Positions 24,605 to 25,018 of a stretch of 64,000 nt of DNA are shown here, in pieces (position 1 is the first letter of the stretch; every line of letters starts with the position of its first letter). This stretch comes from Escherichia coli (lineage in GTDB: Bacteria > Pseudomonadota > Gammaproteobacteria > Enterobacterales > Enterobacteriaceae). Location: NCBI RefSeq assembly GCF_017348835.2, contig NZ_CP071375.1. One strand, given 5' to 3'. The position numbers and the translations under genes are program-made. The notes beneath the pieces are model-generated. The model searched no databases and was not told the DNA's origin. It saw only the letters and a program-made list of their open reading frames with translations.

Positions 24605-25018
24605 TCAGATGGTTTTCAGTATGCGATCGATGTCGCCGTCATCGCCCTGGTTTCTGCCATCGTATGCCATGCCAGCTGATACGGCTTGCGGGCTGTGCAT
24701 GTCCATAAAGTTTTCAAAGGCTGCGGTAAGCTCTGGTGCAACCTTTGGGCGCTCCTGCTCTATGGTCATGTTCAGGATTTCACGAGCATTATCGACGCTA
24801 ATACATGGCACGTTTGCCATTGCACGTAACAGCGGCTGATAGTCTTTATGCTCATGAAGCGCCATAATCGCATCAGCGCGCGGCTTGTCCTGCTCTTCCA
24901 GTTTGTTTAGTTGATATACGGCCTCATAGGTTGATAAACCTCTGTCAGCCATTGCCCGCGCTTCGGCTTTAAATTTACTCGCCAGCGGTAGCGTCATGAT
25001 GCTTTCATTCGTTGCCAT
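24605..25018 (-). CDS. Hypothetical protein (137 aa) between the decoration gene and cos/terS; possibly a head-assembly or packaging accessory protein
   Basis: ORF followed by its own terminator; no family recognised. Confidence 0.45.
   Translation of the reverse strand: MATNESIMTLPLASKFKAEARAMADRGLSTYEAVYQLNKLEEQDKPRADAIMALHEHKDYQPLLRAMANVPCISVDNAREILNMTIEQERPKVAPELTAAFENFMDMHSPQAVSAGMAYDGRNQGDDGDIDRILKTI

What the first reader, a model, noticed from the sequence alone, without database searches (positions are those of the whole stretch)
24605..25018. Unassigned 137-aa protein located between the decoration gene and cos/terS
Its position in the head/packaging block and its own terminator suggest a morphogenetic role (scaffold, size determination or packaging specificity), the kind of function satellites use to redirect helper assembly.
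Basis: inference. Interest (0 to 1): 0.4.

Follow-up and report, generated by a model that had tools for sequence, protein, structure and literature searches.

The report
Satellite-encoded lambda Nu3-like capsid scaffold
The unassigned 137-residue protein is a free-standing relative of the phage lambda head-scaffolding protein Nu3, carried next to capsid and decoration genes by an E. coli phage satellite; this improves the annotation of a known element, and published work suggests the gene is not needed for transfer by the laboratory helper phages.

Summary
The ORF is real: window 24605-25018, minus strand, 137 aa. It has a Shine-Dalgarno site and its own hairpin/U7 terminator, and lies between the decoration gene and a lambda-type cosN. 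It is the ortholog (93% identity) of c1501 of the model satellite EcCICFT073, which I found assigned to no function.

Sequence evidence makes it a lambda Nu3-type internal scaffolding protein. It is collinear with the last ~137 residues of lambdoid S49 head protease/scaffold proteins (39% identity, E 3e-11). Lambda Nu3 itself hits the target's own PHROG family (E 2.7e-26). No protease domain is attached.

The module 68-aa ORF, gpE-like capsid protein, gpD-like decoration protein and this protein is spaced almost identically (at most 1 bp difference) in nine E. coli islands. All four genes are under purifying selection (target dN/dS 0.27). The gene is full-length in 590 of 5426 complete E. coli genomes.

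The "scaffold" reading is supported; "redirects helper assembly or packaging" is not. In published EcCICFT073 work the DNA goes into phage-sized heads, c1501 expression does not inhibit lambda, and a c1498-c1501::cas9 island is still transduced.

NCBI's name "head-tail connector" has no support. This is a new member of a known kind, of modest interest. This window's copy has a frameshifted decoration gene and terS.

The parts
24605..25018 (-). 137-aa Nu3-type scaffolding-protein homolog, ortholog of EcCICFT073 c1501. It has a helical repeat domain (about residues 1-90), a flexible acidic linker and a conserved C-terminal helix (...DIDRILKTI).
   Evidence: ORF. phrog_1999 E 3.7e-65 and the C-terminal part of phrog_53 (head protease) E 1.7e-10. 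39% identity to residues 416-493 of the CFT073 icd-prophage S49 protease/scaffold, E 3e-11. Collinear alignment. Lambda Nu3 hits phrog_1999 at E 2.7e-26. AF2 model. dN/dS 0.27.
25023..25028 (-). Shine-Dalgarno sequence (AGGGGG) of the 137-aa ORF, 4 nt before the ATG
   Evidence: Read directly from the sequence.
24576..24601 (-). Intrinsic terminator (hairpin plus U7) ending the capsid-module transcript
   Evidence: -14.6 kcal/mol, z -3.1; sequence.
24530..24543 (-). Lambda-type cosN (cos1), preceded by a cosQ-like GGGACCTTTCCGG
   Evidence: 2 matches, 0.04 expected by chance; sequence compared with the lambda left end (L002, output).
23666..23679 (+). Second cosN, inverted relative to the first, on the other side of terS
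   Evidence: Two cos sites are published for EcCICFT073 (PMC6092414).
23857..24398 (-). Nu1-like small terminase (terS), frameshifted in this copy (A7 instead of A8 at 24371-24377)
   Evidence: Pfam Phage_Nu1 2.7e-23. 37% identity to lambda Nu1. RefSeq marks it 'frameshifted'. Alignment with intact copies.
25031..25430 (-). gpD-like head decoration gene, frameshifted in this copy by a 32-bp x3.5 perfect tandem repeat (25253-25363)
   Evidence: Pfam HDPD 1.4e-14. Tandem repeat. RefSeq marks it 'frameshifted'. Intact copies are 336 nt.
25442..26497 (-). gpE-like major capsid protein (351 aa), the presumed partner of the scaffold
   Evidence: Pfam Phage_cap_E 8.3e-49. 44% identity to lambda gpE. 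46% identity to the CFT073 icd-prophage capsid protein.
26497..26703 (-). Conserved 68-aa ORF (phrog_3255, function unknown). Its stop overlaps the capsid gene start, and it is the first gene of the module.

Best explanation
The 137-aa protein is a free-standing lambda Nu3-type internal head-scaffolding protein. It corresponds to the last ~137 residues (two ~40-residue helical repeats plus a C-terminal tail) of the protease/scaffold protein (gpC/Nu3 equivalent) of lambdoid phages, without the S49 protease domain. It is the last gene of a four-gene, terminator-bounded capsid-shell module (68-aa ORF, gpE-like capsid protein, gpD-like decoration protein, scaffold) in an EcCICFT073-family satellite integrated in tqsA. 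Shown here: the homology, the gene architecture, the conserved synteny and purifying selection. Inferred mechanism: the helical repeat domain self-associates, and the invariant C-terminal amphipathic helix (acidic patch followed by I/L-L-x-T-I) binds the inner face of the island's own capsid protein. This would chaperone shell assembly on a helper-supplied portal, after which the scaffold is removed (in lambda by the protease gpC). The module is not needed when the island is packaged into full-size lambda or phi80 heads, so any such role must be conditional on other helpers or circumstances.
For: Homology. The target hits the C-terminal, non-protease part of phrog_53 'head maturation protease' (positions 495-567 of 583, E 1.7e-10) and its own family phrog_1999 (E 3.7e-65). 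BLASTP against the S49 protease/scaffold of the CFT073 icd prophage gives 39% identity over residues 49-131 versus 416-493, E 3e-11 (reproduced). That phage protein covers the whole phrog_1999 profile with its last 137 residues (E 1.5e-68). Lambda Nu3 hits phrog_1999 at E 2.7e-26. An exhaustive phmmer search of 1.8 billion representatives finds three relatives outside the near-identical (89% identity or more) E. coli family: one full-length homolog (P0040) and two Nu3-like phage proteins (P0041, P0042). A full-length collinear alignment shares the motifs IMxL...A..(P)x(M/I)(T/S)V..A..IL and F-E-x-F-M..HSP.AV, then an acidic patch and a hydrophobic C-terminus. A repeat HMM built from phage scaffolds matches target residues 48-82 (E 4e-7) and the N-terminal repeat of the 141-aa homolog (E 2e-7). 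The size (137 aa) matches lambda Nu3 (about 131 aa, phrog_8399). The AF2 model shows a confident helical domain at residues 1-90, a disordered acidic linker and a terminal helix, the usual scaffold layout. Context: the gene is always directly after the capsid and decoration genes, at almost identical spacing (at most 1 bp difference) in nine E. coli islands that differ in replicase, integration site and terS/rpp gene, and in the more divergent islands L013, L015 and L016. Selection: dN/dS is 0.27 (capsid 0.13, decoration 0.10). Between the window and L013 the capsid and decoration proteins are 84% identical but this protein only 41%, while the N-terminal SIMxLPLASKF and C-terminal IDRILKTI stay invariant. 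Fast-evolving middles with fixed contact ends are typical of scaffolds. Lambda Nu3 is reported to bind E, B, C and itself (PMC3224144).
Against: There is no experimental link between this protein and any capsid. In EcCICFT073 no small capsids were seen, and deleting the capsid or decoration gene changed neither transfer nor interference (PMC6092414). c1501 expression alone did not affect lambda. Replacing c1498-c1501 with cas9 still allowed phi80-mediated transduction. The island has no portal or protease gene, so a self-built shell would depend on cross-recognition of helper parts. Direct similarity to lambda Nu3 is weak: BLASTP is not significant and hhalign gives E 0.0019 with probability 14%. 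The link runs mainly through other lambdoid scaffolds. A Salmonella island with a 68%-identical capsid protein plus a decoration gene lacks this gene. The AF2 fusion of capsid protein and target gave no confident docking of the C-terminal helix (pLDDT about 50), and no coordinates could be inspected. In this window's copy the decoration gene and terS are frameshifted, so the module is probably not functional here.
Confidence: 0.6

Rival explanations
1. Decoy or competing scaffold. The protein acts on the helper's capsid protein rather than on the island's own, competing with helper Nu3 to disturb or resize helper procapsids, as SaPI CpmB competes with the 80-alpha scaffold.
For: The C-terminal tail follows the same pattern as helper scaffolds (DGDIDRILKTI versus DGDADVKMLMAMP in the CFT073 prophage and SDAVNDLLNTPV in lambda). 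Its closest phage relative is the scaffold of the icd prophage, reported to be the EcCICFT073 helper. Competing scaffolds are an established satellite strategy (Dearborn 2017, cited in PMC6092414).
Against: EcCICFT073 DNA is packaged only in phage-sized heads. Expression of c1501 alone does not reduce lambda plaquing, and interference maps to rppA. The island also carries its own capsid and decoration genes under stronger purifying selection, which a pure decoy would not need.
Confidence: 0.15
2. Captured late-gene remnant with no current role. It would be the 3' end of a helper C/Nu3 gene picked up together with D and E during late-gene capture by satellites, and carried along since.
For: Gram-negative PICIs capture helper late-gene clusters (PMC10111431). 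The ORF equals the C-terminal 137 residues of a phage protein. The module is dispensable in laboratory transfer. The Salmonella relative lacks the gene. Neighbouring genes are decaying in this window.
Against: The gene is intact and of constant length in 590 genomes and in all nine islands compared, with dN/dS 0.27. It has its own start codon and Shine-Dalgarno site. It is retained at 28-41% identity with invariant termini in divergent lineages. That pattern indicates constraint, not drift.
Confidence: 0.12
3. Packaging-specificity or DNA-packaging accessory factor: FI-like, or a partner of the adjacent TerS/Rpp acting at the neighbouring cos site.
For: The gene lies immediately upstream of cos and terS or rpp. 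Its size is similar to lambda FI (132 aa).
Against: There is no similarity to lambda FI (E 0.42). The same protein is kept unchanged next to either TerS or the unrelated Rpp-type protein, so it does not co-vary with the packaging-specificity gene. In EcCICFT073, Rpp plus the cos site account for packaging specificity.
Confidence: 0.05
4. Head-tail connector or adaptor protein, as NCBI names some family members.
For: The RefSeq/PGAP product name 'phage head-tail connector protein' is given to a subset of near-identical proteins.
Confidence: 0.02

Closest known systems
Phage lambda gpNu3 (capsid assembly/scaffolding protein) and the Nu3-equivalent C-terminal region of lambdoid S49 head proteases (gpC)
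   Same: Homologous sequence. Similar size (137 versus about 131 aa). Helical repeat, then an F/L-x-x-(F/L)-M..(S/A)P motif, then an acidic patch and a hydrophobic C-terminus. Encoded in the same neighbourhood as the D-type and E-type head genes.
   Different: It is a free-standing gene with its own start, not nested in frame inside a protease gene. The island has no protease. It has two repeats, against one in lambda and three in the CFT073 prophage. Gene order is E-D-scaffold, not scaffold-D-E. It is carried by a satellite. Only 22-39% identical.
EcCICFT073 c1501 (Fillol-Salom et al. 2018, 2019)
   Same: 93% identical ortholog at the same position: capsid gene c1499, decoration gene c1500, c1501, cos.
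   Different: In EcCICFT073 the next gene is rppA (144 aa). Here it is a Nu1-like terS, with no similarity between the two. In the papers I searched, c1501 has no assigned function and served only as a landmark for a marker insertion.
SaPI CpmB, an alternative internal scaffold of staphylococcal satellites
   Same: A satellite-encoded internal scaffold-type protein related at its C-terminus to the helper's scaffold. It is a conceptual parallel for how a satellite scaffold could act.
   Different: CpmB acts on the helper's capsid protein and makes small capsids. Here the island has its own capsid protein, and no small capsids have been observed for the model island. I did not compare the sequences (no CpmB sequence was fetched); the parallel comes from the literature and my own knowledge.
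Capsid-forming PICIs (cf-PICIs)
   Same: A satellite that carries its own HK97-fold capsid gene and accessory head genes.
   Different: cf-PICIs encode the full head and packaging set (capsid, protease, portal, adaptors, TerS, TerL). This island has only the capsid protein, decoration protein, scaffold homolog and TerS.
P4 Sid (external size-determining scaffold)
   Same: A satellite-encoded capsid morphogenesis protein in E. coli.
   Different: No sequence similarity. Sid is an external scaffold acting on P2 gpN.

Membership tests
Lambda Nu3-type internal scaffolding proteins | Sequence homology to the Nu3 / gpC C-terminal scaffold region | tested here: met
   phrog_53 C-terminal region, E 1.7e-10. 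BLASTP E 3e-11 to a lambdoid S49 protease C-terminus. Lambda Nu3 hits the target's family phrog_1999 at E 2.7e-26. Direct hhalign to the lambda Nu3 family is only weak (E 0.0019).
Lambda Nu3-type internal scaffolding proteins | Helical repeat unit (IMxxxEAxGRExxAxxLAxxPGMTVxxARxILAA) followed by a C-terminal tail motif | tested here: met
   Collinear alignment. The repeat HMM matches residues 48-82 at E 4e-7. The N-terminal repeat is significant only in the 141-aa homolog. The internal self-alignment alone is not significant (44 of 500 shuffles reach its score).
Lambda Nu3-type internal scaffolding proteins | Encoded next to the D-type decoration and E-type capsid genes | tested here: met
   The order is E-D-scaffold here, against C/Nu3-D-E in lambda.
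Lambda Nu3-type internal scaffolding proteins | Produced from an in-frame internal start within the protease gene C | tested here: not met
   It is a free-standing ORF with its own Shine-Dalgarno site. No S49 domain is present in the protein or the island.
Lambda Nu3-type internal scaffolding proteins | Present in procapsids, absent from mature heads, required for correct capsid protein assembly, and self-associating | not testable with these tools
   Needs biochemistry. The AF2 fusion attempt was inconclusive.
EcCICFT073-type Gram-negative PICI (the element that carries the gene) | Integrase, AlpA-type regulator, primase or RepA replicase, unidirectional genes, cos site(s), about 11 kb, and no tail or lysis genes | tested here: met
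   RefSeq annotation of the identical PE164 locus. Synteny with EcCICFT073. cosN sites. Helper-dependent induction was not tested.
Capsid-forming PICI (cf-PICI) | Own portal, protease, head-tail adaptors and large terminase in addition to the capsid protein | tested here: not met
   None of these is annotated or detected in the island.
Phage head-tail connector/adaptor proteins (the NCBI product name) | Match to a connector family model or fold | tested here: not met
Lambda FI DNA-packaging chaperone | Sequence similarity to gpFI | tested here: not met
   BLASTP E 0.42; no Pfam hit.
P4 Sid-type size determination protein | Sequence similarity to Sid, and production of small capsids | tested here: not met
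   BLASTP E 0.35. The literature reports only phage-sized packaging for EcCICFT073.

The most novel reading that the evidence does not exclude
EcCICFT073-type satellites carry a complete shell-building kit: their own capsid protein, cognate Nu3-type scaffold, decoration protein and a conserved 68-aa protein. With some natural helpers, or when the helper's own E or C/Nu3 gene is unavailable (as in helper-embedded PICIs that interrupt those genes), they would build their own capsid shell on the helper's portal. That would be an intermediate state between classical PICIs, which steal whole capsids, and capsid-forming PICIs, which steal only tails. It would explain why the module is under purifying selection although dispensable with lambda and phi80.
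Probability: 0.25. Interest if true: 0.65.

Novelty: new member of a known kind. Interest (0 to 1): 0.38.

Why it matters
It gives a specific, testable function to a gene found full-length in about 11% of complete E. coli genomes, including O157:H7 and O55:H7 lineages. That gene has been 'hypothetical', or misnamed 'head-tail connector', even in the model satellite EcCICFT073. It also sharpens an open question. Most Gram-negative PICIs carry a capsid gene with no known phenotype. If a cognate scaffold and a decoration protein travel with it under purifying selection, the module is more likely a working shell-assembly kit than a stray capture. The experiment that follows is co-expression of the three proteins, plus complementation of helper E or Nu3 mutants.

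Tried and rejected
1. Pfam, NCBIfam and PADLOC scans of the target gave no hits.

2. PDB sequence searches, with the single sequence and with a profile, found no relative.

4. Direct BLASTP against lambda gpC/Nu3 was not significant. Homology had to be established through other lambdoid scaffolds and PHROG profiles.

5. I predicted an AF2 fusion of capsid protein, 40-residue Gly/Ser linker and target, using a block alignment. The C-terminal helix stayed at pLDDT about 50, and neither coordinates nor PAE could be inspected, so this was inconclusive.

6. The internal-repeat self-alignment was suggestive only (score 29 versus 21.5 +/- 4.4; 44 of 500 shuffles reached it).

7. I first read the published 'c1501::tetA' strain as a knock-out and rejected that. 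The primer arms show tetA was inserted after the stop codon.

8. FI-like and Sid-like readings were rejected.

9. A first local tblastn with default seeding missed the phi4 hit. It was recovered with word size 2.

10. The small neighbouring ORFs (68, 74 and 93 aa) show no similarity to lambda or phi4 head genes.

Full report
**Observation.** The window holds an ORF at exactly 24605..25018 on the minus strand (ATG start, 137 aa).
- It starts 12 nt after the stop of the decoration ORF, with AGGGGG 4 nt upstream of the ATG.
- It ends directly before a hairpin followed by U7 (-14.6 kcal/mol, z = -3.1).
- Thirty-odd bases further on lies a lambda-type cosN, GGGCGGCGACCTCG, at 24530-24543. Then comes a Nu1-like terS, and a second, inverted cosN at 23666-23679.

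**What carries it.** The region is 100% identical to E. coli PE164.
- It is an ~11-kb island split into tqsA. In order it carries an integrase, an AlpA-type regulator, an Icd-like gene, DUF4222, a RepA-type helicase, SSB and PerC. These are followed by a 68-aa ORF, a gpE-like capsid protein (44% identical to lambda gpE), a gpD-like decoration protein, the target, cos, terS and a 93-aa ORF.
- This is the organisation of the model Gram-negative satellite EcCICFT073.
- The target is 93% identical to that island's c1501. c1499 is the capsid gene and c1500 the decoration gene (PMC6092414).
- Where EcCICFT073 has rppA (c1503), this island has an unrelated Nu1-like terS.

**What the protein is.** Pfam, NCBIfam, PADLOC and PDB sequence searches find nothing. 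PHROGs does.
- The target belongs to phrog_1999 ('unknown function', E 3.7e-65). It also matches the C-terminal, non-protease end of phrog_53 'head maturation protease' (positions 495-567 of 583, E 1.7e-10).
- The only hit in 50,697 phage records lies at the 3' end of the protease/scaffold reading frame, just upstream of D and E, in a lambdoid phage.
- Against the S49 protease/scaffold of the CFT073 icd prophage, BLASTP gives 39% identity over residues 49-131 versus 416-493 (E 3e-11, reproduced). That prophage is reported to be the EcCICFT073 helper.
- The phage protein's last 137 residues cover the whole phrog_1999 profile (E 1.5e-68). Lambda Nu3 itself hits phrog_1999 at E 2.7e-26.
- A multiple alignment is collinear over the full length. 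It shows two helical repeat units of the type IMxL..EA.GRE.LA..LA..PGMTV..AR.IL, then F-E-x-F-M..HSP.AV, then an acidic stretch and a short hydrophobic C-terminus.
- A repeat HMM built only from phage scaffolds matches target residues 48-82 (E 4e-7) and the N-terminal repeat of a 141-aa homolog (E 2e-7).
- Direct similarity to lambda Nu3 is weak, so the link to lambda runs through other lambdoid scaffolds.
- Exhaustive phmmer against 1.8 billion representatives finds three relatives outside the near-identical (89% identity or more) E. coli family: one full-length homolog (P0040) and two Nu3-like phage proteins.
- The AF2 model has a confident helical domain (residues 1-90, pLDDT above 90), a disordered acidic linker and a terminal helix. 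Fold searches were uninformative and showed no connector-like fold.
- The protein is thus the equivalent of the Nu3 part of gpC/Nu3. It is about the same size as lambda Nu3, but free-standing and without any protease.

**Is it maintained?**
- The gene is full-length in 590 of 5426 complete E. coli genomes.
- In nine islands that differ in replicase, integration site and terS/rpp gene, the block 68-aa ORF, capsid (351 aa), decoration (111 aa) and this protein (137 aa) has almost identical spacing, differing by at most 1 bp.
- dN/dS is 0.27 for the target, 0.13 for the capsid gene, 0.10 for the decoration gene and 0.27 for the 68-aa ORF.
- In a more distant island (L013) the capsid and decoration proteins are 84% identical, but this protein is only 41% identical. 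Its N-terminal SIMxLPLASKF and C-terminal IDRILKTI remain invariant.
- A further lineage (capsid protein 63% identical) has a 141-aa homolog at 28% identity.
- A Salmonella island with a 68%-identical capsid protein has no such gene.
- A fast-evolving middle with fixed ends is what one expects of a scaffold that contacts partners through its termini. That last point is inference.

**Mechanism.** The most likely reading is a cognate internal scaffold for the island's own capsid protein.
- It would self-associate through the helical repeats and bind the capsid interior through the C-terminal helix.
- Lambda Nu3 is reported to bind E, B, C and itself (PMC3224144).
- This part is inferred from homology and context, not shown.

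**Published experiments limit the functional claim.**
- EcCICFT073 DNA is packaged only in phage-sized heads. Deleting c1499 or c1500 affects neither transfer nor lambda interference.
- pBAD-c1501 does not inhibit lambda; only c1503/rppA does.
- An island with c1498-c1501 replaced by Ptet-cas9 is still transduced by phi80 lacking cosN. The junction-check primers run from c1497 into cas9 and from cas9 into c1503.
- The 'c1501::tetA' strain is not a knock-out. The recombination arm ends at the c1501 stop codon.
- So the module, this gene included, is dispensable for transfer by the laboratory helpers. Any role must be conditional.

**Rivals considered.** They are a decoy scaffold acting on the helper capsid protein, a captured remnant, a packaging accessory factor and a head-tail connector. 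They are weighed in the rival section of this report. FI-like and Sid-like readings fail.

**Novelty.** In the literature I could search, I found no paper that assigns a function to c1501. NCBI's occasional name 'head-tail connector protein' is unsupported. The result is a better annotation: a new, free-standing satellite member of the Nu3 scaffold family. It also gives a sharper form of the open question of what PICI capsid modules are for. It is not a new kind of system.

**State of this copy.** In this window the decoration gene is broken by a perfect 32-bp x3.5 tandem repeat. terS has lost one A from an A8 run. This copy of the module is therefore probably non-functional, although the target ORF itself is intact.

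Noticed in passing
window 25253-25363 (inside the decoration gene, 25031-25430, minus strand): A perfect 32-bp tandem repeat of 3.5 copies adds 64 nt and frameshifts the gpD-like decoration gene. Intact copies in other islands are 336 nt. Only the PE164-type sequence has this arrangement at 99% identity or more.
   Followed up: partly
window 24371-24377 (terS 5' end, minus strand): The A-run is 7 long here and 8 long in three intact islands. The resulting -1 frameshift removes the first residues of the Nu1-like small terminase. RefSeq marks the gene as frameshifted.
   Followed up: yes
window 24530-24543 (-) and 23666-23679 (+): Two exact lambda-type cosN sequences lie in inverted orientation on either side of terS. 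The same two-cos arrangement is published for EcCICFT073, where the sites flank rppA.
   Followed up: partly
window 26497-26703 (minus strand): A conserved 68-aa ORF (phrog_3255, function unknown) has a stop codon that overlaps the capsid gene start. It is present in every island examined, including the Salmonella one, with dN/dS 0.27. It shows no similarity to lambda or CFT073-prophage head genes. It is a possible further head-assembly factor.
   Followed up: partly
RefSeq annotation of family members (e.g. L006:3501-3914, L011:3501-3914): NCBI names some near-identical copies 'phage head-tail connector protein' and others 'hypothetical protein'. No current Pfam or NCBIfam model supports the connector name, so it looks like a propagated mis-annotation.
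   Followed up: yes
L014:6402-6678 (Salmonella enterica island): A related island with capsid (68% identical) and decoration genes goes straight from the decoration gene to cos and terS, with only 276 nt between and no scaffold-like ORF. The scaffold gene is therefore not universal in this capsid module.
   Followed up: partly
window 23857-24398 compared with L005:27660-28094: Otherwise syntenic islands carry either a Nu1-like TerS (180 aa when intact) or an unrelated Rpp-type protein (144-146 aa) at the same slot after cos. The packaging-specificity gene has been swapped beside an unchanged capsid module.
   Followed up: partly
window 26780-26940 (minus strand): Two hairpin/T-run terminators and a weak sigma-70-like promoter (TTCATA-18-TATCAT) with nearby inverted repeats lie just upstream of the 68-aa ORF. 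This suggests the capsid module is its own transcription unit. Its regulator is unknown.
   Followed up: no
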